Source: Pelagomonas calceolata (taxonomy: Eukaryota). Taken from it: DNA of 64,000 nt. The position numbers and the translations under genes are program-made. Below are positions 17,609 to 63,991 of this stretch, one piece after another. Numbering within the stretch: the stretch's first letter is position 1; each line of letters begins with the position of its first letter. The DNA lies in the NCBI GenBank assembly GCA_918797485.1, contig CAKKNE010000002.1, positions 4,092,001 to 4,156,000 of the forward strand. The letters run 5' to 3'. The notes below the pieces were generated by a model. The model searched no databases and had not been told where the DNA came from. It worked only from the letters and a program-made list of their open reading frames with translations.

Positions 17609-20600
17609 TCAGCGACGCGACCCTTCGCGCACGAACTTGTGCGGCACGTAGCCCTCTCGGTCGGAGCCGTCCGTCTTCCTGGCGTAGACCAGGGATCCGA
17701 ACTTCGCGAGGTCCGCGGCCGGCACCAAGACCACGTCGCCTTCGTTCACCGAGAGCTCGTTCGGCGAGTGGGCGACAAACGCGCGGACGACGACGCAGCG
17801 CCGCTCGCCGCGCGAGGGCGTCACGGTCGCGGGCGCTGGGGCCGGCTCCGGCGGCGCAATTGGCGCCGCTTTTGGCTTTGGCGGCGTCGCGACGGGTTCT
17901 GGGCTCCTCTGTGGCGTCGCAGGTGGCTCCGGCGCAGGCCTCGGCGTCGCGGCCGGCTCCGAAGGTGACAGCTCGATCGACCGCGGCGTCGCAATCGCCA
18001 CGGGACTCGGTTTGCGCGGCGACGGCGACGGAGACACGGGCGACGCGGCGGCGGTCGAGGCCGGACTCGTCGGAGGCGACGGGGTCGGGCTCTTCGGCCC
18101 GCCCGCTGCCGCGTTGACGGTGCGCAGGAGCCGCGCGCAGGCGACTGTTGCCCACAATGCCTCGTCGGCGTCGGCCGCGACGCCGTGGCCAAAGATCAGC
18201 GGCGCCGTCGCGGCCGCGAGCCCGCGCCACGAAGCGCCGTTCAAACGGCGCCGACGCACGATTTTCCCGAGGTGTTTCGCCAGGCGCGTCAGCACCTCGC
18301 GGTGAAAGGGTGGGAGCTCCCCGAGGAGAATGCACAGGTGATGACGCTGGCCGGCGACGCCGCGGCTCGGGCTCGGCTCCGTCGCGGCGCGGATGAAGGC
18401 TTGCCTCCGCCCCAGTGTCGCCAATGGTGCGCGCTCCCGGAGCAGCGCGGCGACCGCGTCGATCACGGCGTGCGGGTCGCCGGCGTCGATCGCTGCGGCG
18501 ATCGCGGGCTTCGCCTCTAGAACCACTCGCACGGCCGCGGACCTCGCCTCGTCGCCGTGCCGCATCCAGAGTCCTGGGGCGCAGAGCGCGCGCTCGTCCC
18601 CGTCGAGCGCGTCGAGCGCGCCTCGCATCACCTCGGCGTCGCCGGCCGTCCAGGGCGGCAGGTCGTCGTCGTCGTCGTCCACGTCCACCTCCACGTGTTC
18701 ATCCGGCGGCCCATCCCCTCCCTGCTCGAAGGCGTCGTCGTCGTCCTCGGCGCCGACGCGGCAGCAGGTCGCGCCGAAAAACGCCGATACGCGGGCGAAC
18801 GACGCGCCGTCCGCGCCGGGCGTCGCATGAGAGGCGAAGGCGGCGCCGCAGCCGCTCGAGATGGCCCCCTCGATGCCCGTCGACAGAGCCGCCCCGCGCG
18901 CCCCCTGGGCCAGGAGCTCGAACTGGAGCCGCGCGGTTCGGCGCCGCGCGCCAAAGGGGCCCTTGTGGAGCTTCGTGCGCTTGACCACGTGCTCCCAGAA
19001 CTGGTGGAAGCTCAGAGTTGAGGCCACCTGAGCTGATACGTCCGCGACGCGCTCGTCGAAGCCCTTCATGCGCACGAAGAGAGTTTCACTTAACGCGCGC
19101 CGCGTCTCCGCGTCGAGGCCGAGGCCACTGCAGATGCTCGACGCGCACGCCGCGGGCTCCTCCGACGCGAGGCGCCAGACGCAGAACGCCACGAACTCCG
19201 GCAGGTCGAAGCCCGGCGCGACGGCCACCTCCCGCAGATCGTCGTCGACGAGTGCGTAGTAGCCCTTGCGCGCGCAGGAGATGGCGTCGACGAGCCCCAA
19301 TGCTTCCTCGCTCGAAATCTCGCAGCCCTGCGACTGGTAGTGGAACCGCAGGTCGTCGACGCTCACGAGGCCGTCCTGGTCCTTGTCTAGCAAACGGAAG
19401 GCCGTGCGCAGGTGGCCGAGCTGGAACGGCAGCGCGACGTCCACCAAATGCTCGGGATCCTGGATCGCGTCCGCGTCGAGGGCGACGGCCTTCTCCGAGG
19501 TAGGACTCGCCGGGCGGCGGTGCTTCAGCGCCCGCTCGGCCGCGTGGCGCCAGGCGCCCTTCTTGCTGCTCGCGTGTGGCTCGGCAACGGGGCTCGGAGC
19601 CGTCGCCTCCATCTCTAGAATTTCCTCGAGCTCGTCGACGTGGCCCAAAAAGGCGGCGCGCATCGGCGCGCCCCGTAGCTCGTGGTCGGCCACGGCCTCG
19701 CGCACCTTTCGACGCAACTTCGTCGCCTCGTGCTCCTTCCGCGCTTTCAATCGCGGGTACGCGCGGCGCCAGAGGCTCCCGGAAATGGGCCGCGCGCGCC
19801 ACGCGGCCACGTTGTACGGTTCCAGAGAGGGGTGCAGCGTCAGCACGTAGATTAAGTGCAACGCTCGCCAGGCGTCGGCGAGTTCTCCGCGCTTCAATGA
19901 TGAAGGAACGCGCCCGCCCAGCAGGACGTCGTCCAGGATGCGAGCGAGCTCGTCTGATTGTAAACGGCACGCCAGCGCGCGGCTCGGCGCCGGCGCCGCG
20001 AAGGCGAGGCAGTGCGCCGGCCGCACGCGCCGCGCGTAGGCGTCCTCGACCGCCGACAGTATCAAACGCGAGGCCGCGCACATGACGGGGTTGTTGTGTC
20101 TCTCAGAAAGCATGACCGTGGACGCGAACGTGTTGTAGCCCGGGTCCAACCAGCCGATGTTGCCCGTGAAGAGCGAGACGTCGACCCGGAACACGTTGAT
20201 CGTGGCGATGAGGTAGAGGACGAGCACCCGCAGCGGCCCCGCGACGGGCCCCACTATCAAATCCCACATCCCGAGCACAAAGTCCCACAAGTCGAAACAA
20301 TTCCGGTGGTGCACGTACGTGCCGTCGCTGATGAACTTGTTGAGGAAGACGAACAGCAGCATGTTGAAGAGCCACAGCACGAGCAAGGGTACGATGGCGC
20401 CGCCCAGCAACTCCACGACGTACCGCCGCGCCGCCTCCTGCGCCTCCCAGGCGTTCCAGGCGAAAACCACCAGTCCCGCGCCCAGAAAGCATATCGCCGA
20501 GACGACCAGCGCGTGCGCCACGACGACGCCCATGAACCGGATCGCGTATGGCGCCGCCGGCGTAATAAACCCACGCCACAGCCGGTCGCCCAGGGTCCGG

Positions 20601-22654
20601 GGCAGCGTCGCCTCCGCTTTTATAAGGTCGCGCCCGTCCAGCAGGCCCGTCTCGCGCATCTCGAGCGTCGCCTCCTCGAAGCGGAACAGGATCATCAGCA
20701 GGCCGTAGTTCACGAACACGAACGCCGCGACGGCCGCGACGTTGCCGGCGTCGGTGAGCATCGCGCAGTAGCGCTCCGCCGCCGCCGTCCATTTGCCGAG
20801 CTCGCTCCGGTACTCGAGGACGTACGGTAGATATTGGCGGGTCATGTTCTGCGCGCGCTCCATTTCGACGGCGAGGACTTGCGCGGCGTCGGTCAGGCGC
20901 GAGACGTCTTGCGCGACGTCGACGCCGAGGCCCGTCGCGTTCAGGGCCGCGTCCAGGGTACTGGCGGCGCTCGCGACGCCCGCGACCGCATCGTACTGGG
21001 CGACTTGGGCGCACGACGCGTTGGTGAGGCGGTCGAAGCTACTTGTACACGAAGCATTGTAGTAAGACGCCACGATTGCGTCAACGTCGTCCAGGTCGTC
21101 CTCGAGGTTCCCGAGCCGCTTCTCAACAGTGATCGCCACGAGCCACGTCAGATACGCGAGCGCGGCGATGACTGTCACCGCTACCAACCACGCGGCGGCT
21201 ACCGCGGCGATGAGCCGCGCGGCCGGGTGGTAGCTCCGGTCGCGGACGCGGTCCTCCCAGGCCGTCTCCGCGCCCTCGGGCAGGTGCAGGCGGTCGAGGC
21301 GCGGCTCGTCGCGCGCGTCCCCCTGGGCCTTGAAGAGCGCCCCGCACAGCGAATTCGTGCAGCACTCAAACGCGAGCCGCCGCGAGTAGAGCTGGACCCG
21401 GCGGGCGCCGCGCTTCGCGACCCTGAAGGACCTGTCGTCGTCCTCGGACGAGCCGCTCTGCCGGACAAAGTCCTCGTACGCGCCGTCGCCCTTCTCCAAG
21501 ATCGCCTGGGCGCGTCGCTGCAGGGGCCGCGGCCGCTTCGTCGGGTCGTGCGCGCGTTCGGCGAGGTCGTGGCCACCGAACGGGCCCGGACAGGCGCCCG
21601 GTGGGTGAATGAGCGCGGCGAGCAATGCGCGCTGCTCGGCCTCCTTGTAGAGGTGCGAAGGAGCCCAGGTCGGGTCGCGCAGCGTCCCGCGGAGCAGCGC
21701 GCGCCAGGCGTCCGCCCTCGGGCGCCAGGCGCGCGGGAGCGCGCCGGGCGCCTCGGCCTTCAGGTCCGCGAGGAGCGCCTCGTCGCGCGCCAGCGCTTTT
21801 TCGAGGACCGCACGCTCGACGGAATCCTTCTCCCGCGCCAGGCGGTCGCGCGTCGCCTCCACACGTTTCGCCTGCTCGGCCGCGTCGTGCGGCGCGAATG
21901 CCACAGCGATCACGAGGGCGTAAGCCAGGACCGCCACGAGCAGCGCGTCGCAGATCAAGATGATCGCGCAGCCGATGACATGAACAATACTCCGGGACTT
22001 CGCGGTCGCGTCGAGCGGGCGCTCGTGGTTCCAGTAGGTCAGGCGCGCGTCGCGCGCGACGGCGACGAAGAGACTCGCCGCCGCCGCGACGAGCCAGTGC
22101 CAGCGCCGCAATTGGCACCTGTTGCGCTGCCTTGATTTCACGGAGGCGTTGTTCGCGCCGCACACGGCCGCCATGAAAATGATTTCCAGTAGCATGTCCG
22201 CGTAGAAGTTGGAGGCCCAGCCGTCCCGGTCCACAAAAACCGCGTACAGAAGCTTGCCGAAGCTTGATTCGGGCTCGTGCTCGTATAATTTCTCGCGCTG
22301 CGCGCACTCCCAGCGGTACATGCTGTCATCACATTTCTTCAAAGGAGCGAGCAGGAGCACGTAGACGCCCCGCAGCACGAGCCGGAAGATCACGATCGCC
22401 GGAAAGTATTGCGAGAGGTGCGAGTTCCGCAGCAGTTGCCAGCAGTTCAGTAAGTACCGCTCGAGATACGCCGTGGCCTCGTCGATCGCGCGCGGGACGG
22501 ACCACCGTCTGTGCTTCGCCTGCCGGTCGGGCGGCTTTTCGTGGCGCGCGACGCAGGCGCCTTCTACAGCAGCTACATGACGCGCCACCGGCGACTCCAC
22601 GTCTTGGTGCGCCCTTGCCTCCTTCTTCGTGCGCGCCCGGCCCCCTCCGAACAT
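17609..22654 (-). CDS. Multi-pass STRA6/RBP-receptor-like membrane protein fused to EF-hand, RhoGAP-like and SH3 domains
   Basis: Many TM segments. STRA6-like LDPGYNTFASTVMLSERHNNPVM and IYVLTLHPSL; EF loop DKDQDGLVSVDDL; RhoGAP-like PGLWMRHG...DPHAV...LPPFHREVLTRLAKHLGKIV...LAAATAPLIF; SH3 VVRAFVAHSPNELSVNEGDVV...EGYVPHKFV. First ATG is 22654. Confidence 0.8.
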   Translation of the reverse strand: MFGGGRARTKKEARAHQDVESPVARHVAAVEGACVARHEKPPDRQAKHRRWSVPRAIDEATAYLERYLLNCWQLLRNSHLSQYFPAIVIFRLVLRGVYVLLLAPLKKCDDSMYRWECAQREKLYEHEPESSFGKLLYAVFVDRDGWASNFYADMLLEIIFMAAVCGANNASVKSRQRNRCQLRRWHWLVAAAASLFVAVARDARLTYWNHERPLDATAKSRSIVHVIGCAIILICDALLVAVLAYALVIAVAFAPHDAAEQAKRVEATRDRLAREKDSVERAVLEKALARDEALLADLKAEAPGALPRAWRPRADAWRALLRGTLRDPTWAPSHLYKEAEQRALLAALIHPPGACPGPFGGHDLAERAHDPTKRPRPLQRRAQAILEKGDGAYEDFVRQSGSSEDDDRSFRVAKRGARRVQLYSRRLAFECCTNSLCGALFKAQGDARDEPRLDRLHLPEGAETAWEDRVRDRSYHPAARLIAAVAAAWLVAVTVIAALAYLTWLVAITVEKRLGNLEDDLDDVDAIVASYYNASCTSSFDRLTNASCAQVAQYDAVAGVASAASTLDAALNATGLGVDVAQDVSRLTDAAQVLAVEMERAQNMTRQYLPYVLEYRSELGKWTAAAERYCAMLTDAGNVAAVAAFVFVNYGLLMILFRFEEATLEMRETGLLDGRDLIKAEATLPRTLGDRLWRGFITPAAPYAIRFMGVVVAHALVVSAICFLGAGLVVFAWNAWEAQEAARRYVVELLGGAIVPLLVLWLFNMLLFVFLNKFISDGTYVHHRNCFDLWDFVLGMWDLIVGPVAGPLRVLVLYLIATINVFRVDVSLFTGNIGWLDPGYNTFASTVMLSERHNNPVMCAASRLILSAVEDAYARRVRPAHCLAFAAPAPSRALACRLQSDELARILDDVLLGGRVPSSLKRGELADAWRALHLIYVLTLHPSLEPYNVAAWRARPISGSLWRRAYPRLKARKEHEATKLRRKVREAVADHELRGAPMRAAFLGHVDELEEILEMEATAPSPVAEPHASSKKGAWRHAAERALKHRRPASPTSEKAVALDADAIQDPEHLVDVALPFQLGHLRTAFRLLDKDQDGLVSVDDLRFHYQSQGCEISSEEALGLVDAISCARKGYYALVDDDLREVAVAPGFDLPEFVAFCVWRLASEEPAACASSICSGLGLDAETRRALSETLFVRMKGFDERVADVSAQVASTLSFHQFWEHVVKRTKLHKGPFGARRRTARLQFELLAQGARGAALSTGIEGAISSGCGAAFASHATPGADGASFARVSAFFGATCCRVGAEDDDDAFEQGGDGPPDEHVEVDVDDDDDDLPPWTAGDAEVMRGALDALDGDERALCAPGLWMRHGDEARSAAVRVVLEAKPAIAAAIDAGDPHAVIDAVAALLRERAPLATLGRRQAFIRAATEPSPSRGVAGQRHHLCILLGELPPFHREVLTRLAKHLGKIVRRRRLNGASWRGLAAATAPLIFGHGVAADADEALWATVACARLLRTVNAAAGGPKSPTPSPPTSPASTAAASPVSPSPSPRKPSPVAIATPRSIELSPSEPAATPRPAPEPPATPQRSPEPVATPPKPKAAPIAPPEPAPAPATVTPSRGERRCVVVRAFVAHSPNELSVNEGDVVLVPAADLAKFGSLVYARKTDGSDREGYVPHKFVREGSRR

Positions 22655-53798: not shown

Positions 53799-56102
53799 AT
53801 GGCGCGACGGAGGATAGCATGCGTGCTCGCAGTAGCGAGCGTCAGCGCCTGGCTCGCGCCCATGAGCAAGCCGGCCGCGCGCGGCATCCGGCCGCAGACG
53901 GCGACGATGACGCCCGAGGAGCGCATCGCCGCCATGGACGCCCAGGAGGGCGCGGCCAAGGACGTCACGGCGCGCAGCGAGCAGGACGGCCTGCCGCTGT
54001 CCATGGTCGTGGGCCAGGACAGCATCAAGACAGCGCTTCTACTCGCGTCCGTCAACCGCGACATGGGCGGCGTCCTCATTTCTGGGGGACGCGGCACGGC
54101 GAAGTCCGTGATGGCTCGAGCGTTACACTCGTTGTTACCTCCCATCGAGGTCGTGAAGGACTCGAAATACAACGCGGACCCGGAAAACGTCCAAGAAATC
54201 GATTCTCTGTTGCGAAAGCAGCTCGAGGCCATGGACGACGGCAAGAAGGTGACCGAGCGACTCGCTGATCTCGACCGGGAGATCATTAAGGCGCCGTTCG
54301 TCCAAATCCCGCTCAACGTCATGGACGACATGCTTCTCGGTAGTATTGATGTAGAGGAATCGGTGAAGCAGGGCAAGTCCGTCTTCCAGCCCGGGTTGTT
54401 AGCTCGGGCCCACCGGGGTGTGCTGTACGTCGACGACATCAATCTGCTGGATTCCGAGGCTACTAATATCCTGTTGCAGGTTATCAGTGATGGCAAGGTC
54501 ATCGTCGAGCGCGAGGGCATTTCGGTCACGTATGCGTGCAAACCCTTGCTGATCGCGACCTTCAACCCCGAGGAGGGCGAGATGCGCGACCACTTGCTGG
54601 ATCGCATCGCCGTGTCTTTATCTGCCGATGCGGCGCCGCTAGATATCACCCAAAGAGCCGAGGCCGTTGACAGTGTATTAACCTTCGCCGCGGGCGGCGA
54701 GAAGCGCGCCAAGGCCTTAGACGAGGACATGGAGGCCTCCGACGCGTTGCGGTCTAGAATTATCTTCGCTCGTGAGGAGATCGGGGACGTCACGTTATCG
54801 AGGGACCAGTTGGTCTACTTATGTGAAGAAGCTGTAAGGGCGGGCTGCCAGGGCCACCGCGCCGACATCTACGCCGCGGAAGTTGCGAGAGCCTCGGCCG
54901 CACTCGCGGGAAGAACCGCGGTCGACGCGGAAGACCTCAAATTGGCCGTCAAACTCGCCATCGTACCTAGATCTTCGTTTGTAGCGGACATGGAGGAGCC
55001 GCCGGACCTCGACATGCCGCCGCCGCCGCCGCCGCCGCCGCCGCCCCAGGACCAGATGGACGAGATTGACGAGGACCAGGACCAGGACGAGCAGCAGGAG
55101 CCGCCCGACCAGGAGGACCAGGAGGACCAGGAGGACGCGCCCGAGCCCGAGCCCGAGGAGCCCGAGCTGCCGGAAGAGTTCATGTTCGACGCGGAGGGCG
55201 TGCCCATCGACCCCGAGTTACTGGCGTTCGCCAATAAACAGAAGCAGGGCAAGTCCGGCGGGCGGGGCATGATCTTCTCGGAGGATCGGGGGCGGTACAT
55301 CAAAGCTCAATTGCCTCGTGGTAAGGTTCGGCGGTTGGCTGTGGACGCGACGATGCGAGCGTCGGCGCCGTACCAAAAGCCGCGCCGCGAGAGGCAGCAG
55401 GCGAACCCGCAGAAGAAGTACATGGGCCGCAAGGTGTTCATCGAGGAGAGCGACGTTCGCTCGAAGCGCATGGCGCGCAAGGCCGGTTCTCTGATCATCT
55501 TCGTCGTCGACGCGTCGGGCTCCATGGCTCTGAACCGCATGCAGGCCGCGAAGGGTGCGGCTCTCAGCTTATTGACGGAGGCCTACCAGTCGCGCGACCA
55601 GATCTCGCTGATCCCCTTCCAAGGCGATGCCGCGGACGTGCTGGTGCCGCCGACGCGGTCGATCGCTCTCACCAAAAAACGCTTGGAGACCATGGCGTGT
55701 GGGGGCGGCTCGCCGTTGGCGCACGCCTTGTCCATGGCGGCGCGCACGGGCATGAACGCCCAAAAATCAGGCGACGTCGGCAAGGTCGTCGTCGTCTGCA
55801 TTGGTGATGGGCGGGCGAACGTGCCGCTCGACGTGTCGTTAGGTACGGCGGAGCCCCTGGAGCCGGGCACGAAGCCCGATAGGCAAGCTCTCAAGGACGA
55901 ACTTATCGACACGGCGAAACAACTCGGCTCCATTCCTGGGTTTTCGTTACTGATGCTCGACACGGAGAACAAGTTCGTCTCGACGGGCCTGGCCAAGGAC
56001 ATCGCCGACGCGGCGCAGGGCCGCTACTTCAAGCTGCCGAAGACGAACGAGGCCGCGATCGCCGAGCTGACGCAGGGCGCGGTCGGCGCGATGAAGGCAT
56101 AG
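53799..56102 (+). CDS. chlD: Magnesium chelatase subunit D, plastid-targeted
   Basis: [34 protein letters not shown], polyproline/acidic linker, [10 protein letters not shown], v[23 protein letters not shown]. Confidence 0.97.
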
Positions 56103-56481
56103 ATAGGCGCGCGGTCCTATCCTCGACCTAAGGAGGCGTGGTCGCTAGTTCTTTTTGCGGCGGGGAGACACAGTGCGTCGCCGATCCATCGGCGCGGGCG
56201 GGGGCGTCGGGCGAGGGCCGCGTCGGGAGGGGCCCTTTTCGTCGCGCTCGCAAAGGAGCGGTCTGGCGAGGCCTCTCATACGACCGAGAGCGTCCGCGGA
56301 CGAGTCTCCCGCGTGCGGAGCCGCATCTCTAGAGCGCATGATTTGACAGCTTGGAACGCCTCGGCACCGGGCCAGCGGCACGACCGACCGGCTGAGTTTC
56401 GACGCGGGGCAGCCCCGGAGCGCGCATACGTCGAAGGGAGGCCAGCACGGCCTCGATATATGCCGCTCCCAAGCCATTAGG

Positions 56482-59049
56482 ATGAGGAGCCCACTCCCCC
56501 TGCTCCTGGCTGCGGCGGCCGCCGGCGCGGCCACCGTGGAGGTCCGCTTCACGGCGGACTTCACGGACGCGGTGACCTCCACCAGCAGCACGTCCTGCCG
56601 CGGCGGCGCCTACCGCGCGCACGCGCTCAACGTCGCCAGCAGCGCCGACGCGCTCCTGCGCATCGAGGGCGGGGGCGTGGCCAAGGCCTGCGGAACCGAC
56701 GCAAGATGCGCCCAAGTCTTCGCCGCGATGGGCTACGACGCCTGGGCGCTGAACGCCGCCGACGTCGCGTCGGGGTCCCTCCAGACATTCGTCAATGCCG
56801 CCGGCAGCAAGCCCGTGGCCTCGAACTACGACGAGGTCTACACGACGACCTTCGCCGACCTCGGCGGCGCCGTCCTGCTGGCGCTGTCGGCGACAAGTAC
56901 TGCCACGTACCGCAAGGGGCTCGAGGTCGGCTGGGCCGACGCGCTCGCGGCCGGCGCGAGCCTCGACGATATCGTCGTGCTCTGCGTGTCCGGCATCTCG
57001 CAACCCGACATCGACGCGTTCGGCGCGAGCAGCGCCGCGGACGCCGTGCGCAAGATCGCCGAGGAAAACACGGAGGTCGACATTGTGATCGCGACGGGTA
57101 TCTCCTCCGACCTGCCGTCGGCAGAGGAGCGGACGAACCACTTGAATCAGAGGGTTCTGATCGTGTCCGCCGACGCGGACACCTCCGTCGCGAAGTTCAC
57201 GTTCGACATGTCCGACGTCTCCCCGGCGTCGGCGGCGGCGGTCGCGTCCGGGACATGTTCGTCGTCGTACCAGGACACGTTCGTCAAGGGCATCATCGAC
57301 GGCGACGTCGACACCGTCCAGGTCGCGATGCTCTGCGAGGACAGCGTCGCCGGGCGCGAGGAGTGCGACGCGGGGCGCGCGGCGATCGACGCGATCAACG
57401 ACAAGAACGATGGTTATTTCGACGACCTGCTACCCCTCACGAAGCTGCAGCCCTCGATCGTGGAGTTCCAAAGCTGCGGCGACAACGGCGCACGGACCGC
57501 GTGGCAGTCACTTCCTGTAACTCCCGTGGCCTCGATCGGGCCCGGCGCCACCTCGTGCGTCAAGTCCGTGACATCAACCACCAACCGGGACTTCCTGGGC
57601 CAGCCGGACGACCACCAACCAGTCGTCCTCTCGGAGTCGTCGACGGCCACGCCCGTCAGCGATCGATCTCAATACCCGAACCTCGTCCGGCTGAGCAGCT
57701 CCGAGCGCATCGTGAACGTCGCCCTGTCGGCGGTCACCAACTATTATGGCTGGGACCGGATCGCCGTCGTCTACGAGGTCTCGGACTCGTGGGCCCGGGA
57801 CGCGGCGCGGATATTTAGCGAGAACGTCAACTCGGTGGTTGGCGACCGCTGCACGTCGACCTACTGCCCGACGGAAGACGAGGCGGGTCACGACGGGCCC
57901 AAGACGGGCATCCGTTTCGATAAGACCACGCACTGGTCCGGCTGGCACAAGTACTGCGCCGGCGAATCGTCGAGGACCTGCTCCAGCGACGCCGACTGCG
58001 TCGGCGCCGACACGTGCGACGACACGCTCCGGCCTGAGGCGGCCGACGAGATCCTCAGGGAGCTGGAAGCCAACGACGCCAAGATCATCTATGTGGCGAT
58101 GCACCCCAGAGACCAGAAAGTACTTTTCGAGTGCATCAAGGAGACCGGCATGATGCATGGCGCCGGCCACGCGATCCTCAGTGGGTGGCTCTCGGAGGGT
58201 ATCTTCTTGAACGACGACGGGACGACGAACGCAGCAGCCGTGGAGGGTGCCCGGGGCGTCATCATCGCCATGGAGAAGGCCGTGACGACCGGCAGCGTCG
58301 CGCAGGACTTCATCGCCCACCGCACGCCCCGCCTCGACGAGAGCGTGTGCACAGGCGACCAGATCGCCGGAATGTACTGCGACGTCGACGGCGACGGCGG
58401 GACCATCGGCGGCTACGGGCCGTTCGTCGTAGACACGGTTTATACGCTGGCGAAGGGGCTCGACAGCCTGACGAGCATCACCCGCCAGGACCCCGATTCG
58501 GTCTACGCGGCGATCGCGGGCCTCGGTTCGTTCGAGAGCTTCTCGGGCGACGTGACCCTGGATGGCAACAACGAACGCCTGGGGTCGATGACGATCGTGA
58601 ATCTGCAGCTCGTGACGAGCAACCAGACGTCGCGGCGCCTCGGCGTGCCGCTCAGCGCGACGAGCGCGGATTTTGTCCCCGTGGGCACGATCGTCGACGG
58701 CGTGTTCAGCCCGATCGCGGGCGTGGACGTCATCTTCCCGGGCGGCACGACGGACGTGCCCTGCGACCCGTGCCCGGAGGACAAACACAAGAGCAAGGTG
58801 GACACCGGCCTCGCCGTCGGCCTCGGCTGCGGCTTCGGCGCCCTCATCCTGCTCATGGCCGGCGTGTGGTACCACCACTCAAAAAAGCTCAACAAGGACC
58901 TGGCCAAGGTCCGCGCGGATTTGCAGGACTTCAAGGACTCCGTCGTCGGCGTGAAGGTTGCGGTGAGGGACTACGTGCCCAAGGCCGTGTCGACGGGCGA
59001 CGCCGGGACGGCCGCGGCCAACGCCGTCCAGGGCGCGACGTGGTACTGA
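56482..59049 (+). CDS. Receptor moiety: signal peptide, degenerate 5'-nucleotidase-like domain, ANF-receptor/Venus-flytrap domain, TM, coiled coil; ends in TGA at the start of a WWE domain and continues in frame
   Basis: AMGYDAWAL...PVASNY (UshA-N-like); AAIDAIN...LLP, IGPGATS, LSESSTATPVSDRSQYPNLVRL, YYGWDRIAVVY, VDTVYTLAKGL, SFESFSGDVTLD (VFT); TM LAVGLGCGFGALILLMAGVWY. Confidence 0.85.
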   Translation: MRSPLPLLLAAAAAGAATVEVRFTADFTDAVTSTSSTSCRGGAYRAHALNVASSADALLRIEGGGVAKACGTDARCAQVFAAMGYDAWALNAADVASGSLQTFVNAAGSKPVASNYDEVYTTTFADLGGAVLLALSATSTATYRKGLEVGWADALAAGASLDDIVVLCVSGISQPDIDAFGASSAADAVRKIAEENTEVDIVIATGISSDLPSAEERTNHLNQRVLIVSADADTSVAKFTFDMSDVSPASAAAVASGTCSSSYQDTFVKGIIDGDVDTVQVAMLCEDSVAGREECDAGRAAIDAINDKNDGYFDDLLPLTKLQPSIVEFQSCGDNGARTAWQSLPVTPVASIGPGATSCVKSVTSTTNRDFLGQPDDHQPVVLSESSTATPVSDRSQYPNLVRLSSSERIVNVALSAVTNYYGWDRIAVVYEVSDSWARDAARIFSENVNSVVGDRCTSTYCPTEDEAGHDGPKTGIRFDKTTHWSGWHKYCAGESSRTCSSDADCVGADTCDDTLRPEAADEILRELEANDAKIIYVAMHPRDQKVLFECIKETGMMHGAGHAILSGWLSEGIFLNDDGTTNAAAVEGARGVIIAMEKAVTTGSVAQDFIAHRTPRLDESVCTGDQIAGMYCDVDGDGGTIGGYGPFVVDTVYTLAKGLDSLTSITRQDPDSVYAAIAGLGSFESFSGDVTLDGNNERLGSMTIVNLQLVTSNQTSRRLGVPLSATSADFVPVGTIVDGVFSPIAGVDVIFPGGTTDVPCDPCPEDKHKSKVDTGLAVGLGCGFGALILLMAGVWYHHSKKLNKDLAKVRADLQDFKDSVVGVKVAVRDYVPKAVSTGDAGTAAANAVQGATWY

Positions 59050-60670
59050 AAGGAGACGGAAGCGAACATCACGCGGCACGACGTCGCGCTGGTCAAGCCG
59101 CCGTGCTGGGTCGCGTATCCTCCCGACGTCCAGCGGCAGCTCGAGCAGGCCTTCGAGAGCAATTTACCTAGGGTCCAGACGGGGCCCAACTACTCTGTTG
59201 AGTTGGGGACCATGCAGCAGGTGAACGCGCGGAGCGGGTTCAAGCGCGACGTCTTAAGGGACGTCTCATCAGCCTCGCAAAAATCAACGAGACCGAGCGA
59301 AAAGGCAAATACAGAAGTGCGGCCCGACGAATTGTTGGGAGAGGACGCCCTGCTCCTGCGCAAGGGCTCGATGATCCAGATCAAGGACCAGCGGAAAGAC
59401 GGCTGGGCCTACGGGACTGTTGTCCTGAACAAAGGAGACGAGAGTAAAGATAGACGGTTCCTCGAGGACGGCATCTCGCTGTCGGCGGGCTGGTTTCCCC
59501 TCGCGTGTACGGACGTGCCGTCCGTCGATCAACTCGGCGAGCTCCAGAAGCTGCTCGGCGGCGCGGGCGACTCGGCGCTCGATCCGCCGAAGTACTGGGG
59601 CCAGGTGAAGGACCCGCTCATGGCCGAGTACTTTCCGCTGCAGCAAGGAAGCGAGGAGTACCAGCGCGTCTACGACGCCATCAACCTGACGACGGGGCCG
59701 CAGCAGCTCAGGATCCACTCCATCGAGCGGGTGCAGAACATTAGTTTGTGGCAGTCGTACTGCGTGAAGAAGAGCGCCACGGTCGCGCGCGAAAAGGACC
59801 CCGTGGCGGCGGAGCGCAAGTACGTGCGCAATTGGTCGAGAGCTGTGTGGAAATCAACCAGTGAGTTGGCTGCCTGGAATTTTCACGCCATCGAGCAGAC
59901 GCAGCTACGGAGAAAATATCGCGTCGATGGCGTGGGGCGCGACCGAAATTTGATTTCCACACAGGCTCTTCCACGGGTGCGGCCCCGACGTCGTCGATAA
60001 GATCCTCCAGCAGGGATTCAACCGCTCCTTCTGCGGCAAGAACGCGACGTTCTACGGCAAGGGCGTCTACTTCGCGCGCGACGCGAGTTATAGTACGTAT
60101 CCACTCTACTCGCCCGCCGACGGGCGCGGGTTGCAGACCATCTTCGCCGTGCGCGTCGTCGTCGGCGCGTGGTCCAAGGGCGTCAAAGACGCGCTGACGC
60201 CCGACGTGCGCGACGCGAGGCGCAACCTCCTCTACGACACGACCGTCGACAACATGGCCGACCCGAGCATCTTCGTGACCTACCACGACGCCCAGGCCTA
60301 CCCCGAGTACCGGATCCGCTTCACGCAGTCGAATCCGGCGCAGGGCCACCCGCAGGCCGGCCAGAAGCGCCCCGCCGGCTACAAGCCGAATTTGCTCGAG
60401 GGCGTCGAGGACGTCAAGCCGCGGGCGTCGTCGATCGACGCGCAACCACAACAACAACCACAACAACAACAACCGCAGCGGGTGGCCCCGGCCCCCGTGC
60501 CCCAGCCCGTCGCTCAGCCCGTCGCTCAGCGCCAGCAGTTCATGGTCCAGATTCCCGCGGGCGTCGCGCCGGGCGCGGTGATGACGGTGAGAGCTCCCGA
60601 CGGGCGGCTCTTGCAGGTGCAAGTACCGGCCGGAGCTGTACCTGGTAGCACGATACAAGTTGCGGCCTAG
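59050..60670 (+). CDS. Cytoplasmic moiety: WWE + SH3-like + PARP catalytic (mono-ADP-ribosyltransferase) + VP.G..PG module; join 59050..59834, 59965..60670 (first own ATG 59212)
   Basis: WWE WVAYPPDVQRQLEQAF...MQQVNARSGFKRDVLR; SH3 LLLRKGSMIQI...DGWAYG...GWFP; IERVQNISLWQSY. After splicing: WLFHG...QGFNRSFCGKNATFYGKGVYFARDASYS...YDTTVDNMADPSIFV...QAYPEYRIRF. Confidence 0.88.
59835..59964 (+). mobile_element. Introner element: 130-bp GT-AG intron with 15-bp terminal inverted repeats
   Basis: CTGTGTGGAAATCAA (59843-59857) and TTGATTTCCACACAG (59950-59964). Removal joins TG|G and restores W-LFHG and the reading frame. Confidence 0.9.
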
Positions 60671-60801
60671 CTTCTACCCGCCCGCCGCGCGGCGGGCCAC
60701 TGTCCAATGTTCTCAATTCCAATTCCACCCTTTTTCCTCTTGCTAAGCCTTTTTCTGAGTTTGAACGACTCGGATGTTGTATACAGGTTTTTACACACAA
60801 A

Positions 60802-61323
60802 TCAGTACGACGTGCCCCCGAGGCCGCAGCGGCTCTCGAGGCACGCGAGCGCCTCGCTCGCACCCTTCTGCTTGTAGTGGAGGTATGCCCAGCGGTTCGT
60901 CGTCTCGCAGTCGATGGATTGGATTTTGTCGCATCCGCCGGCCCGCGTGATGTAGGAGGCGAACGCCCACTCGCAGACGCACCAATGCTGCACCGGACAG
61001 AGTCCTCGCTTGCCGTCGCACTGCATGTAATCGTCGCACCAGTTCGGCTGGCCCGTCACCTCGCAGAAGTTGCCGCCGTCGACGCTATCCATCTCTATGC
61101 ATATGTGGTGCGAGCCCGCGTCGTCGACGCGGTCAGTGCACGTGCCTTCGCGCGTGAACCCAGTCAACGCCATGCCCGGGCCGCTACACTTCTTCAGCGG
61201 CGCACCGTAGACGTTCAGGTAGCGGTCCGACCGCGTGTCGTTGTCGTTCTCCGTATGCACGTCGAGTCGGCTGCGCTGCGCCGAAACGCTCAGTGCGAGC
61301 AGGATGAGGGTTTTGACAGTCAT
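60802..61323 (-). CDS. DUF2237 family protein with signal peptide
   Basis: NVYGAPLKKCS...TGFTREGTC...DAGSHHIC...WCVC; start placed at MTVKTLILL. Confidence 0.85.
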   Translation of the reverse strand: MTVKTLILLALSVSAQRSRLDVHTENDNDTRSDRYLNVYGAPLKKCSGPGMALTGFTREGTCTDRVDDAGSHHICIEMDSVDGGNFCEVTGQPNWCDDYMQCDGKRGLCPVQHWCVCEWAFASYITRAGGCDKIQSIDCETTNRWAYLHYKQKGASEALACLESRCGLGGTSY

Positions 61324-61526
61324 AATCGCTTTCCGGTGAGAGTTCGTGTGTCTGACTGGGTTTGCTCTCTCTGACTCTGATGCCCTGTGCTCACGCGTGG
61401 GCAAGTTAGCGATGGAAATTATCACGCTCTACGTTACGAGAGAGCAAGCGACGCTCGCTTTTAGTACTGATGCTGCGTGCAAGCCAAATTGCTTACACTG
61501 CCATACACACAAGTCAAATAATCGCG

Positions 61527-61600: not shown

Positions 61601-63991
61601 ATGGATGATCAGGCGATGGATGCTGAAGCAGCAGCTATCTTGCGGCAAGAGGCAACTGCGTACGATGTGTTGGGCGTCGATCCGCGCGCAGATGCCAATG
61701 CTATCAGACGAGCTTATCACAATCGAAGTATGCGGTGGCATCCGGACAGGTGCAACCACGCCCGCAGGACGGAGGTTATGCAGCGTATCAATAGCTCCTA
61801 TGAATCGGTAAGGGACGAGGCTCGCCGAGCAAACTACGACGAGTCGCTCAGGGCCGCGGCGCGGCGCGCGCGCCGGAACCGAGATTCGCCATGGATCGGT
61901 GCGACAATGCGCAACGGCGCGTACGGCCGATTGATGGAGTTCGTTGCGAAGGTCGACCGTGACGGTGTGTTCGAAATGACGCTCCCCACCATCGTGGTGG
62001 TTGGCCTCGAAAGTCACGGGAAGAGCTCGCTCATGGAGCGGCTTGCCCTACGCGACGTGTTCCCGCGTGGGGTGGGCTTCGTGACCAGAATGCCCATTTT
62101 GCTGAAATTGCGCCAGGTTAACTTCGAGAACTCGGTCGGCATCCGCCTGATCCGCCTGAGCGGCTCGAGTGTCGTAGAGGAAGTCGAAGAAGAAAAGAAG
62201 TTTTACGACATCGGCCAGCGCAACTTTGCGGAGGTCGTCGCTGAGAAGATGCAGCAGTTTATCTCGCAGAGGGGCGGAGGTAGCGGCGACATGCAGGTCG
62301 TTATTGACCATAGGATTGAGATCGAGATCCGTGCCGCGGACCTGGTCGACATCGACCTCTTAGATCTTCCGGGCATCGTGAGCATGCCGAAGGATGTTGC
62401 CGAAGCATCGCTGCGACTGACGCGCGAGTTTCTGCAGAGAGACGACACGCTGGCGCTGTGCGTTATCGATGATCTTTTGCCGGCCGTCAGATCGTCCCAG
62501 GCACTGGGCGAGATCGGGCGAGTCGACGGCCTGGGGGCACGCACCATCGTGGTGCTCACGAAGGTCGACATGTTGCAGGGTCCATCGTCGCAGCAGAACC
62601 CGGCCCGCCTGGCGCATCGCCTGGCAAACCCGGCCACAACGGTCGGCTTTGCGCCCAAGGCATTCATCCCCGTCATCAATCGTGGCGAAGACGACGGAAG
62701 GTCGCTCTCAGATACGCTCGACGCCGAGGAGGCGACCTTCGCGGAGTGGAAGAGGACAACTCCAGAACTGCCCGCTGCCGACCACTTGGGCCTCACGGGA
62801 GTCCTCAAATCTCTCAATTCGCTCATCGAGGAACATATTCGCCAAAAGTGGCTACCTCATCAGCTCGAGAAAGCAACACGTCGACTGCAGGTGGTTCGGG
62901 ATGAAATCGACTCGCTTGGCGCGCTGTCTGTGTCAAGAGAGCTCTTCCTTGATCGTTTATGTGAAGTGGTGAGTGAGAAGCTGGCAGAGTTGGACTTGAA
63001 AAATGGTAGCAGCAATCCCGAGATGAAATTCTACTATGATTGGATGGCAAAATTGAACTTTCCAGCTGATATACCACGGGGGGGCGGTCGATTTAATCGT
63101 GTTCGTCGCCGTATGCGGGCGAAGGCCATTTGGAAACTCATCGTGGAAAGCGTGCCTAGTGAGGACTTGGTACGAAAACTGATCAGCTTGGCACTTTCAG
63201 ATTCTCAGTTGCCGGTCAAGATGGACCGTTTCGACCCGAGTATCGGCCGCACGCTGTGCGCATACGCGATGAATAACAACGCCGAAATTGAAACGCTCGC
63301 CAACTTAGGCTTCCGTGAACATTGTTACAGTGAACCGCTGGATGACTATCAGTATCATAATCATGCTGCAGCTGCTGACTCGCGAATTAGGGAAGAGGCC
63401 AAGGATGCGGTCCTCGAACACGTCTTCATGCCATTGGTTGAACGGTCCTTTTGGTCGGGTCTCCAGCTCGATCTTCAGGAGAGCCCTCAATCGCGGGATC
63501 GGCGGAACCACCTCCTCGCTCAGGACGCGGCCCTGGTGCGGCTCATTGATGAGCTGAACCGGTTCCGCGACGGTCAACACTCTAACGCGCAGGCGCCAGC
63601 AGGTGACGGTGGGTCACCAGCAGGCGCCGGACGGGCAACACCTACGGACTCCTCGGGGCGGCGGCGTAACTCGGGGCGGCGGCGTCATCCAAGGGGCAAC
63701 CCGCCGCAATCGCCTTTTGGCCAGTCCAGTTCGACGTTTGGCGGCGGTTCGCCATTTGGAGGCGCCTCGCCCGCTCCCTCCGGCTTCACAGATGCCAGTG
63801 GCGGATTCACATTTGGTCATGGTGGCCCTACATTTAGCGCGTCTCCATCTGCCGCCGCGCCGCCCGCGCCTGGGCCCGCCGCAAGTTTCTCCTTCGGCGC
63901 TACCGCGCCCGCCCCCGCGCCCGGTTTCTCCTTCGGCGCCGCCCCGCCCGCGCCCCCACCCGCCGCCCCTTTCTCCTTCGGGCCCCGATAG
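61601..63991 (+). CDS. DnaJ domain + dynamin/Mx-like GTPase + helical stalk + FG-repeat tail
   Basis: J-domain YDVLGV...IRRAY...WHPDR; G1 VVVGLESHGKSSLME, G2 TRMP, G3 LLDLPGI, G4 LTKVD; tail SPFG, TFGG, FTFG, FSFG x3. Confidence 0.88.
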   Translation: MDDQAMDAEAAAILRQEATAYDVLGVDPRADANAIRRAYHNRSMRWHPDRCNHARRTEVMQRINSSYESVRDEARRANYDESLRAAARRARRNRDSPWIGATMRNGAYGRLMEFVAKVDRDGVFEMTLPTIVVVGLESHGKSSLMERLALRDVFPRGVGFVTRMPILLKLRQVNFENSVGIRLIRLSGSSVVEEVEEEKKFYDIGQRNFAEVVAEKMQQFISQRGGGSGDMQVVIDHRIEIEIRAADLVDIDLLDLPGIVSMPKDVAEASLRLTREFLQRDDTLALCVIDDLLPAVRSSQALGEIGRVDGLGARTIVVLTKVDMLQGPSSQQNPARLAHRLANPATTVGFAPKAFIPVINRGEDDGRSLSDTLDAEEATFAEWKRTTPELPAADHLGLTGVLKSLNSLIEEHIRQKWLPHQLEKATRRLQVVRDEIDSLGALSVSRELFLDRLCEVVSEKLAELDLKNGSSNPEMKFYYDWMAKLNFPADIPRGGGRFNRVRRRMRAKAIWKLIVESVPSEDLVRKLISLALSDSQLPVKMDRFDPSIGRTLCAYAMNNNAEIETLANLGFREHCYSEPLDDYQYHNHAAAADSRIREEAKDAVLEHVFMPLVERSFWSGLQLDLQESPQSRDRRNHLLAQDAALVRLIDELNRFRDGQHSNAQAPAGDGGSPAGAGRATPTDSSGRRRNSGRRRHPRGNPPQSPFGQSSSTFGGGSPFGGASPAPSGFTDASGGFTFGHGGPTFSASPSAAAPPAPGPAASFSFGATAPAPAPGFSFGAAPPAPPPAAPFSFGPR

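What the first reader, a model, noticed from the sequence alone, without database searches (positions are those of the whole stretch)
56482..60670. Hidden single-pass 'receptor PARP': Venus-flytrap ectodomain wired to WWE-SH3-mono-ADP-ribosyltransferase
Seen: three ORF-track fragments (56482, 59203, 60131) form one reading frame once the TGA at 59047 is read through and the 59835-59964 intron is removed. The order is signal peptide, 5'-nucleotidase-like domain, ANF-receptor/Venus-flytrap domain, one TM, coiled coil, WWE, SH3, PARP catalytic domain. The triad is H-Y-I (LFHG, GVYFA, PSIFV). Established: H-Y-I marks mono-ARTs such as PARP7/11/12; VFT+TM+enzyme is the layout of natriuretic-peptide receptor guanylyl cyclases; WWE domains can bind ADP-ribose. 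Inference: a cell-surface receptor whose output is ADP-ribosylation rather than phosphorylation or cGMP. I do not know of a described receptor class like this.
Basis: partly seen in the sequence, partly recalled or inferred. Interest (0 to 1): 0.92.

Follow-up and report, generated by a model that had tools for sequence, protein, structure and literature searches.

The report
Receptor ADP-ribosyltransferases of marine algae
This algal gene belongs to a large family of single-pass membrane proteins that join swappable outside sensor domains to an inside PARP-type enzyme and likely turn an outside signal into ADP-ribose tags; the copy in this genome is cut short by a stop codon, while relatives at the same locus are intact.

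Summary
With intron 59835-59964 removed, 56482-60670 is one 1352-codon frame with one internal stop. The TGA is real (DNA and RNA) but is a nonsense allele of an invariant Trp codon: 12 of 12 other close alleles read Trp, and L001 encodes the same locus as one intact 1355-aa ORF. The intron is an introner-like element, seen retained and never seen spliced, so this copy probably makes only a truncated receptor. The architecture: signal-like start, dead 5'-nucleotidase lobe, Venus flytrap, one TM helix, an SH3 with the WWE inserted into it, and a PARP15-like H-Y-I domain. Homologues come from pelagophytes, diatoms and a choanoflagellate; 112 of 116 aligned have a TM just before the module. Their ectodomains vary (flytrap, CUB/NMT1, Cache, PBP, LRR) and are exchanged even between alleles of this locus (AU p=1e-6). 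Related ectodomains also carry kinase or TIR outputs. Seven paper searches found no such receptor class. Activity, ligand and dimer activation are untested.

The parts
56482..56532 (+). Predicted signal peptide (aa 1-17)
   Evidence: Hydrophobic Leu/Ala-rich start, best 10-mer hydropathy 2.26; no dedicated predictor was available
56533..57276 (+). Degenerate N-terminal (metallophosphoesterase) lobe of a 5'-nucleotidase; C-lobe deleted, metal motifs decayed
   Evidence: HH-align prob 100 to the N-lobe of longer relatives, whose profile hits 5'-nucleotidase 2z1a (E 5e-54) and CD73; no Pfam hit on its own
57313..58746 (+). Venus-flytrap (ANF_receptor, type-I periplasmic-binding fold) ectodomain
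   Evidence: Pfam E 4e-20; ectodomain model pLDDT 87.9; Foldseek GABA-B and mGluR; VIA Z 31.8 to Leu-binding protein, 27.8 to NPR-C, 26.1 to GC-A
58804..58872 (+). Single transmembrane helix (aa 775-797)
   Evidence: Only hydrophobic segment called in P0001; a TM at this place in 112 of 116 homologues
58873..58944 (+). Basic juxtamembrane helix, continuous with the TM (coiled-coil-like)
   Evidence: One helix, residues 3-51, in the model of homologue P0003; more K/R after than before the TM in 110 of 112
58945..58977 (+). First strand of the SH3 domain (VGVKVAVRDY)
   Evidence: SH3 matches span model residues 54-239; Vav SH3 Z 8.5, 64 of 65 aligned, rmsd 1.6
59035..59265 (+). WWE domain, inserted into the SH3
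   Evidence: Pfam; VIA Z 10.8 TRIP12, 10.6 HUWE1, 10.2 DTX1 WWE at model residues 74-156
59047..59049 (+). Premature TGA in place of an invariant Trp codon (W856 of W-Y-W-K-E)
   Evidence: No variant at this place in the runs that cover it; Trp in 114 of 114 aligned homologues with a residue there; Trp in 11 of 11 other close proteins and TGG in L001
59341..59517 (+). Remainder of the SH3 domain (DGW and GWFP motifs)
59584..59834 (+). PARP catalytic domain, part in exon 1
   Evidence: Alignment of homologue P0003 to PARP15
59835..59964 (+). 130-nt GT-AG intron made of an introner-like element with 15-bp terminal inverted repeats (59843-59857 and 59950-59964)
   Evidence: Bin depth 63,709 against about 600 in flanking exon in DNA run X1; hairpin z -4.3 that buries the 3' splice site; absent from L001-L003; retained in RNA-type contigs and in P0258
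59965..60328 (+). PARP catalytic domain, part in exon 2, with H1121, Y1153, I1220
   Evidence: Pfam; for homologue P0003, PARP15 at E 8e-37 and VIA Z 24.9, rmsd 1.9 over 191 residues
60329..60670 (+). Q/P-rich linker and small C-terminal repeat domain of no known family; stop TAG at 60668-60670
   Evidence: Sequence; a similar tail in P0003, P0007, P0270 and in window gene 11206-13803

Best explanation
The locus encodes a member of a family of single-pass membrane proteins (sensor ectodomain, TM helix, SH3 with inserted WWE, PARP15-like H-Y-I domain) that likely work as receptors whose output is mono-ADP-ribosylation, and the allele in this genome carries a premature stop before the enzyme. 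Shown: the architecture, its spread, the catalytic motifs, the exchange of ectodomains and the nonsense allele. Inferred mechanism: a small molecule would close the flytrap and re-set a receptor dimer. The continuous TM-plus-juxtamembrane helix, which ends on the first SH3 strand, would pass this movement on to the two PARP domains. These would pair as PARP15 does, and ADP-ribosylate the receptor and partners using NAD+. The WWE would read the ADP-ribose mark (feedback or recruitment) and the SH3 would dock partners. The window's allele would give an 855-aa protein with no output (a null or a decoy). Loss of the spliced mRNA by nonsense-mediated decay would explain why only the intron-retaining form was seen.
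For: Intact ORFs at the same locus (L001: TM onward 96-100% identical per 50-aa bin) and at the syntenic locus (L002/L003, flanked by the same ChlD and DUF2237 genes). 347 hits to the cytoplasmic module. A TM precedes the module in 112 of 116 aligned homologues, against 0 of 116 in a control window; positive-inside in 110 of 112. Triad: H in 116/116, Y in 117/117, third position I/L/V/M/F in 114/114 and never E. Fold closest to PARP15. Ectodomains are ligand-binding folds of many kinds, with at least 20 label changes on the module tree against a minimum of 7. Related ectodomains carry a kinase in 4 and TIR in 3 of 32 proteins scanned, so the PARP module fills a signalling-output slot. PARP15 needs ART dimers for activity (PMC12572374, passages); the equivalents of its interface residues R576 and D665 are R in 117/117 and D in 110/114.
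Against: No activity, ligand, location or oligomer state was measured. The signal-peptide test was crude and positive in only 47 of 90, so ER or another organelle is possible. The R576/D665-equivalent residues may be general to this PARP clade (recalled, not checked), so they are weak support for dimer activation. Inter-domain geometry in the model is uncertain (pTM 0.65). No spliced mRNA of the window allele was seen: none of the 4 joints is the splice, and it is not among the 15 joints shown of 41. Expression of this copy is low and partly antisense. TM segments in the kinase and TIR fusions were not checked.
Confidence: 0.65

Rival explanations
1. Immune or non-self receptors: the ectodomains recognise viral, bacterial or competitor cues, and the PARP domain is a defence effector (marking proteins or RNA, or draining NAD+) rather than a step in nutrient or pheromone signalling. 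This is compatible with the receptor architecture and differs in purpose.
For: Alleles of one locus keep 96-100% identity inside but only 30-66% outside. A single clade for their ectodomains is rejected, p-AU 1.1e-6. Related ectodomains are fused to TIR domains. The closest human enzymes, PARP14 and PARP15, are linked to antiviral defence (PMC12572374, abstract). A loss-of-function allele in this isolate fits a dispensable, fast-evolving gene.
Against: Most ectodomains are small-molecule binding folds (flytrap, NMT1, PBP, Bmp, Cache); LRR types are 2 of 116. No infection data were examined.
Confidence: 0.3
2. The PARP domain is a pseudo-enzyme or only an NAD+/ADP-ribose binder, and the protein signals as a scaffold, as PARP13 or plant RCD1 are thought to.
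For: No activity was shown; PARP13 and RCD1 share the fold; the N-terminal nucleotidase lobe of the same protein is degenerate.
Against: H and Y are invariant, and D-loop and acceptor-site residues are nearly invariant across 117 rows. The catalytic domain is the most conserved region (0.62 against 0.28-0.49 elsewhere).
Confidence: 0.12
3. The window allele makes the full-length receptor by programmed stop read-through, selenocysteine insertion or TGA=Trp recoding.
For: The frame downstream of the stop is intact and almost identical to L001; leaky UGA read-through often inserts Trp (recalled).
Against: The 17 other Trp codons of the gene are TGG, and TGA closes other long ORFs of the window. 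No SECIS match in 56100-61500. 12 of 12 other close alleles read Trp, so the stop is not conserved. The retained intron would also break the enzyme. An intact downstream frame is expected for a recent mutation.
Confidence: 0.06
4. The truncated 855-aa product is a selected decoy or co-receptor that pairs with intact paralogues, not a decaying null allele.
For: The stop leaves signal, ectodomain, TM and juxtamembrane helix whole; the protein is on record from genome and transcriptome sources (P0255); more highly expressed paralogues appear in the same RNA runs (loose ends).
Against: The stop was found only in sequences identical to the window's (2 of 13 database proteins that span the site), with no independent truncation at this point.
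Confidence: 0.15

Closest known systems
Receptor guanylyl cyclases (NPR-A/GC-A) and the clearance receptor NPR-C
   Same: Flytrap ectodomain plus one TM helix plus, for GC-A, a cytosolic enzyme; ectodomain fold matches GC-A (Z 26.1) and NPR-C (Z 27.8)
   Different: No kinase-homology or cyclase domain; the output is a PARP domain behind an SH3/WWE module; many members use other ectodomains
Human mono-ADP-ribosyltransferases PARP15, PARP14, PARP10, PARP12 (clade 3 ARTDs)
   Same: Catalytic domain about 37% identical to PARP15, rmsd 1.9; H-Y-hydrophobic triad; WWE next to a PARP domain as in PARP12 and PARP14 (recalled)
   Different: Those are soluble (macrodomains, zinc fingers); here the enzyme is tied to a TM helix and an ectodomain, and the WWE is nested in an SH3
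PARP16 and the TM-bearing clade-3 PARPs noted in a sponge and in Rhizaria (Perina et al. 2014, PMC4245714, passages read)
   Same: PARP domain anchored in a membrane
   Different: PARP16 has a C-terminal anchor and no ectodomain; the sponge and rhizarian proteins are mentioned only as TM plus PARP, with no ligand-binding ectodomain or receptor role in the passages seen
Receptor kinases and TIR-domain receptors
   Same: Modular ectodomain-TM-output design; related 5'-nucleotidase/flytrap ectodomains occur with kinase and TIR domains
   Different: Output chemistry would be ADP-ribose transfer, not phosphorylation or TIR assembly
Class C GPCRs (GABA-B, mGluR)
   Same: Top Foldseek matches for the flytrap
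   Different: One TM helix, not seven; enzyme fused directly

Membership tests
PARP/ARTD family, clade-3-type mono-ADP-ribosyltransferase | PARP catalytic fold | tested here: met
   Pfam PF00644; PARP15 Z 24.9 for homologue P0003
PARP/ARTD family, clade-3-type mono-ADP-ribosyltransferase | H-Y-hydrophobic triad | tested here: met
   H 116/116, Y 117/117, third position I85/L14/V8/M6/F1
PARP/ARTD family, clade-3-type mono-ADP-ribosyltransferase | NAD+-dependent mono-ADP-ribosylation | not testable with these tools
   Needs an enzyme assay
Poly-ADP-ribose polymerases (PARP1/2, tankyrase) | Catalytic glutamate (H-Y-E) | tested here: not met
   E in 0 of 114 rows with a residue at that column
Receptor guanylyl cyclase | Flytrap ectodomain and single TM | tested here: met
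Receptor guanylyl cyclase | Kinase-homology domain and cyclase domain | tested here: not met
   The cytoplasmic part is accounted for by SH3, WWE and PARP
Class C GPCR | Seven TM helices after the flytrap | tested here: not met
   One hydrophobic segment in P0001
5'-nucleotidase (CD73/UshA) | N-terminal metallophosphoesterase lobe | tested here: met
   through longer relatives
5'-nucleotidase (CD73/UshA) | C-terminal substrate lobe and metal-binding motifs | tested here: not met
   C-lobe is a gap in the alignment; the DaGD and GNHE positions read EGGG and LNAAD
Type-I cell-surface receptor | Cleaved signal peptide and plasma-membrane location | tested here: inconclusive
   Crude hydropathy test only; positive-inside rule in 110 of 112 supports the orientation
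Type-I cell-surface receptor | Ligand-dependent change of output | not testable with these tools
   Needs ligand and activity assays
Introner (transposon-derived intron) | Terminal inverted repeats, high copy number, recent gain | tested here: met
Introner (transposon-derived intron) | Target-site duplication | tested here: inconclusive
   The 8 nt before (GTCGAGAG) and after (GCTCTTCC) the element differ; it may have diverged
Introner (transposon-derived intron) | Removed from the mRNA by splicing | tested here: inconclusive
   Retention seen; splice joint not seen, but 26 joints were not shown; L001 may be a spliced transcript or an intron-free allele

The most novel reading that the evidence does not exclude
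A new class of enzyme-linked receptors, receptor ADP-ribosyltransferases, in which interchangeable sensor domains control a cytosolic PARP15-like enzyme through a conserved TM-SH3(WWE) coupling module. They are spread across pelagophytes, diatoms and a choanoflagellate, and swap ectodomains between alleles and paralogues as a diversifying sensory or immune repertoire.
Probability: 0.7. Interest if true: 0.93.

Novelty: categorically new. Interest (0 to 1): 0.86.

Why it matters
The known enzyme-linked receptors signal through kinases, phosphatases, cyclases or TIR domains (textbook knowledge). A receptor that writes ADP-ribose directly would add a new output chemistry. It would also give a ligand-switchable PARP, which makes the open question of how mono-ARTs such as PARP15 are switched on testable in a natural system. 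The family occurs in abundant phytoplankton, including Aureococcus, which an early survey listed as having no PARP (PMC2964712), so it points to an unrecognised way these cells sense nutrients, partners or enemies. The WWE-in-SH3 module and the allele-level ectodomain exchange are of separate interest.

Tried and rejected
Assembly error at the TGA: rejected; no variant row in two DNA runs (one may be the window's source) and two raw RNA runs of one sample, nor in three more RNA-type contig sets. The metatranscriptome X15 had no cover at that place. Two separate genes: rejected. Recoding or SECIS: not supported. PDB search with the N-lobe alignment alone gave nothing significant. The VIA and Foldseek lists for the ectodomain model were filled by the flytrap, so the N-lobe fold was not tested structurally. 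The ESM Atlas gave no usable hit. No whole genome is held for the window, so paralogues were not counted. The search for shorter proteins gave 23 hits, many on short contigs; I did not examine them for TM segments, so a soluble form of the module is neither shown nor excluded. Four look-ups in earlier scan findings gave nothing relevant. Three look-ups by recalled paper id, for a review of ART natural history and an RNF146 WWE structure paper, were not held.
Full report
Observation. The window looks like a pelagophyte alga; this is inferred from the closest named homologues (Aureococcus) and the intron type. ATG 56482 opens an 855-codon ORF that ends in TGA at 59047-59049 in the context W-Y-stop-K-E, and the same frame stays open to 60000. 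Removing the GT..AG intron 59835-59964 gives a 4059-nt CDS whose only stops are codons 856 and 1353. Pfam places ANF_receptor, WWE and PARP on the pieces.

The stop. It is not an assembly error: no other base is read there in DNA runs X1 (possibly the window's source) and X6, in raw poly(A) runs X21 and X22 (one sample), or in contig sets X4, X9 and X10, which are only guessed to be RNA. The 855-aa protein is on record from genome and transcriptome sources (P0255). The position is Trp in 114 of 114 aligned homologues with a residue there. Of 13 database proteins with the close motif across the site, 11 read Trp and the 2 that stop are identical to the window's; L001 has TGG. The gene's other 17 Trp codons are TGG and no SECIS was found. 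I read it as a recent nonsense allele. Sense RNA cover is continuous across the stop and no ends or starts pile up there. One X4 contig of 3283 nt ends at 59867 and bridges the stop at even depth. So this is one transcription unit.

The intron. It has 15-bp terminal inverted repeats, its bin is about 100-fold deeper than exon sequence in DNA run X1, and it folds into a hairpin that buries the 3' splice site (z -4.3). An element at this position shows in 11 other database proteins that read through into it; it is absent from L001-L003. Contigs of X4, X9 and X10 run into it at exon depth, none of the 4 joints is the splice, and transcriptome-sourced P0258 reads through it. In one search the splice was not among the 15 joints shown of 41, which is inconclusive. 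Decay of the spliced, stop-bearing mRNA would explain this pattern; that step is inference.

Intact forms. L001 holds the same 5' region and the start of the neighbouring DUF2237 gene, and encodes one uninterrupted 1355-aa protein with ANF_receptor, WWE and PARP. It may be a spliced transcript or an intron-free allele. L002 and L003 encode P0003 (1329 aa) without intron or stop, next to the same ChlD and DUF2237 genes.

The family. The cytoplasmic module of P0003 found 347 proteins among 7828 candidates, 120 of them listed. I aligned 116 homologues with a P0003 stretch, leaving out P0002, P0008 and P0010 (end before the enzyme) and P0073 and P0104 (partial match). 112 of 116 have a hydrophobic segment within 90 aa before the module (median gap 31.5 aa), against 0 of 116 in a control window; 110 of 112 follow the positive-inside rule. 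My tally of ectodomain labels: flytrap 51, nucleotidase plus flytrap 5, NMT1/CUB 17, Cache 9, PBP 3, LRR 2, Bmp 1, multi-TM 4, unlabelled 24. Named members come from Aureococcus, Nitzschia, Seminavis, Cylindrotheca, Stauroneis and the choanoflagellate Stephanoeca (one transcript for the last, contamination not excluded). No named haptophyte appeared. Labels change at least 20 times on a FastTree of the module (minimum 7; shuffled mean 38.8, so types are clustered but mixed). Of 32 ectodomain relatives picked, 7 carry PARP, 4 a protein kinase, 3 a TIR and 1 EF-hands.

Structure. The model of P0003's TM and cytoplasmic part (pLDDT 87.2, pTM 0.65) shows one helix from the TM into the cytosol. Its PARP domain matches PARP15 (Z 24.9, rmsd 1.9, 191 residues), residues 74-156 match WWE domains (Z 10-11), and SH3 matches run from residue 54 to 239 (Vav SH3 Z 8.5, 64 of 65 aligned). 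So the SH3 starts right after the helix and the WWE is inserted within it; a range gives only first and last residues, but the strand pattern agrees. The WWE keeps W, Y, Q and R residues (Q 115/117, R 115/117) at positions I recall as ADP-ribose contacts in RNF146. The window's ectodomain model (pLDDT 87.9) is a flytrap like GABA-B, mGluR, LIV-binding proteins and natriuretic-peptide receptors. Residues 18-265 align to the N-lobe of relatives that are whole 5'-nucleotidase-like domains, without the C-lobe or metal motifs.

Ectodomain exchange. Window and L001 are 92% identical over the first 50 aa and 96-100% from the TM on, but 30-66% between. In trees the cytoplasmic parts group together, while the window's ectodomain groups with P0003/P0004 (100/99) and L001's with paralogue P0017 (100/100). 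Holding them together is rejected, p-AU 1.1e-6. The simplest reading is that L001-type alleles took their ectodomain from a paralogue by recombination.

Mechanism. The triad is H-Y-hydrophobic in every row that has it and never has the glutamate, which points to mono-ADP-ribosylation. PARP15 needs its catalytic domain to dimerise through R576 and D665 (PMC12572374, abstract and passages); the equivalent residues are kept here, though they may be general to the clade. Flytrap receptors act as dimers (established knowledge). I therefore favour ligand-driven dimer rearrangement that switches on the enzyme (0.65 overall). Whether the purpose is chemical sensing or defence is open.

Prior knowledge. 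Seven full-text searches for this architecture found no description of it. PMC2964712 (passages) lists Aureococcus and two diatoms as lacking PARPs and never uses 'transmembrane'. PMC4245714 (passages) mentions TM-plus-PARP proteins in a sponge and Rhizaria without an ectodomain. PMC8195603 (passages) was not relevant. Term searches in PMC7335047, PMC9481584 and preprint 10.1101/2024.10.30.620910 found no 'PARP'. No supplements were read, subscription journals are not searched, and a review of ART natural history could not be fetched; any of these may already show the architecture. Databases label single members only automatically.

Verdict. A real and apparently undescribed receptor-like PARP family; the window's own copy is a nonsense allele. 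Interest 0.86.

Noticed in passing
window 11206-13803 (+): Soluble-looking 865-aa protein with a WWE of the same subfamily (Pfam E 2.5e-7), repeats that resemble ubiquitin-interacting motifs (by eye) and the same small C-terminal repeat domain as the receptor; a candidate downstream reader of ADP-ribose.
   Followed up: partly
window 57450-57930: A peak of reads in the antisense orientation inside the flytrap-coding region in both raw RNA runs.
   Followed up: no
window 60029-60300: Loose read ends show at least one much more highly expressed paralogous PARP gene in the same organism.
   Followed up: no
P0099, P0101, P0105, P0120: The same WWE/SH3-PARP module behind several TM segments, one with a Cache ectodomain and one with nucleotidase and cysteine-rich domains; possibly multi-pass receptor versions.
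   Followed up: partly
window 59838-59842 and 59966-59970: The 5' end of the intron pairs with the start of exon 2, extending the introner hairpin over the 3' splice site; the expected target-site duplication is not seen.
   Followed up: partly
window 61601-63991 (+): DnaJ domain fused to a dynamin-family GTPase.
   Followed up: no
window 17609-22654 (-): 1681-aa protein with RBP-receptor (STRA6-like), EF-hand, RhoGAP and SH3 matches, an unusual receptor-like fusion.
   Followed up: no
L002 10301-10798; L003 6219-6716: The DUF2237 neighbour is inverted relative to the window in the related species.
   Followed up: no
L005-L007: Short flytrap-only genes related to this ectodomain, with no TM-PARP part in the match.
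   Followed up: no
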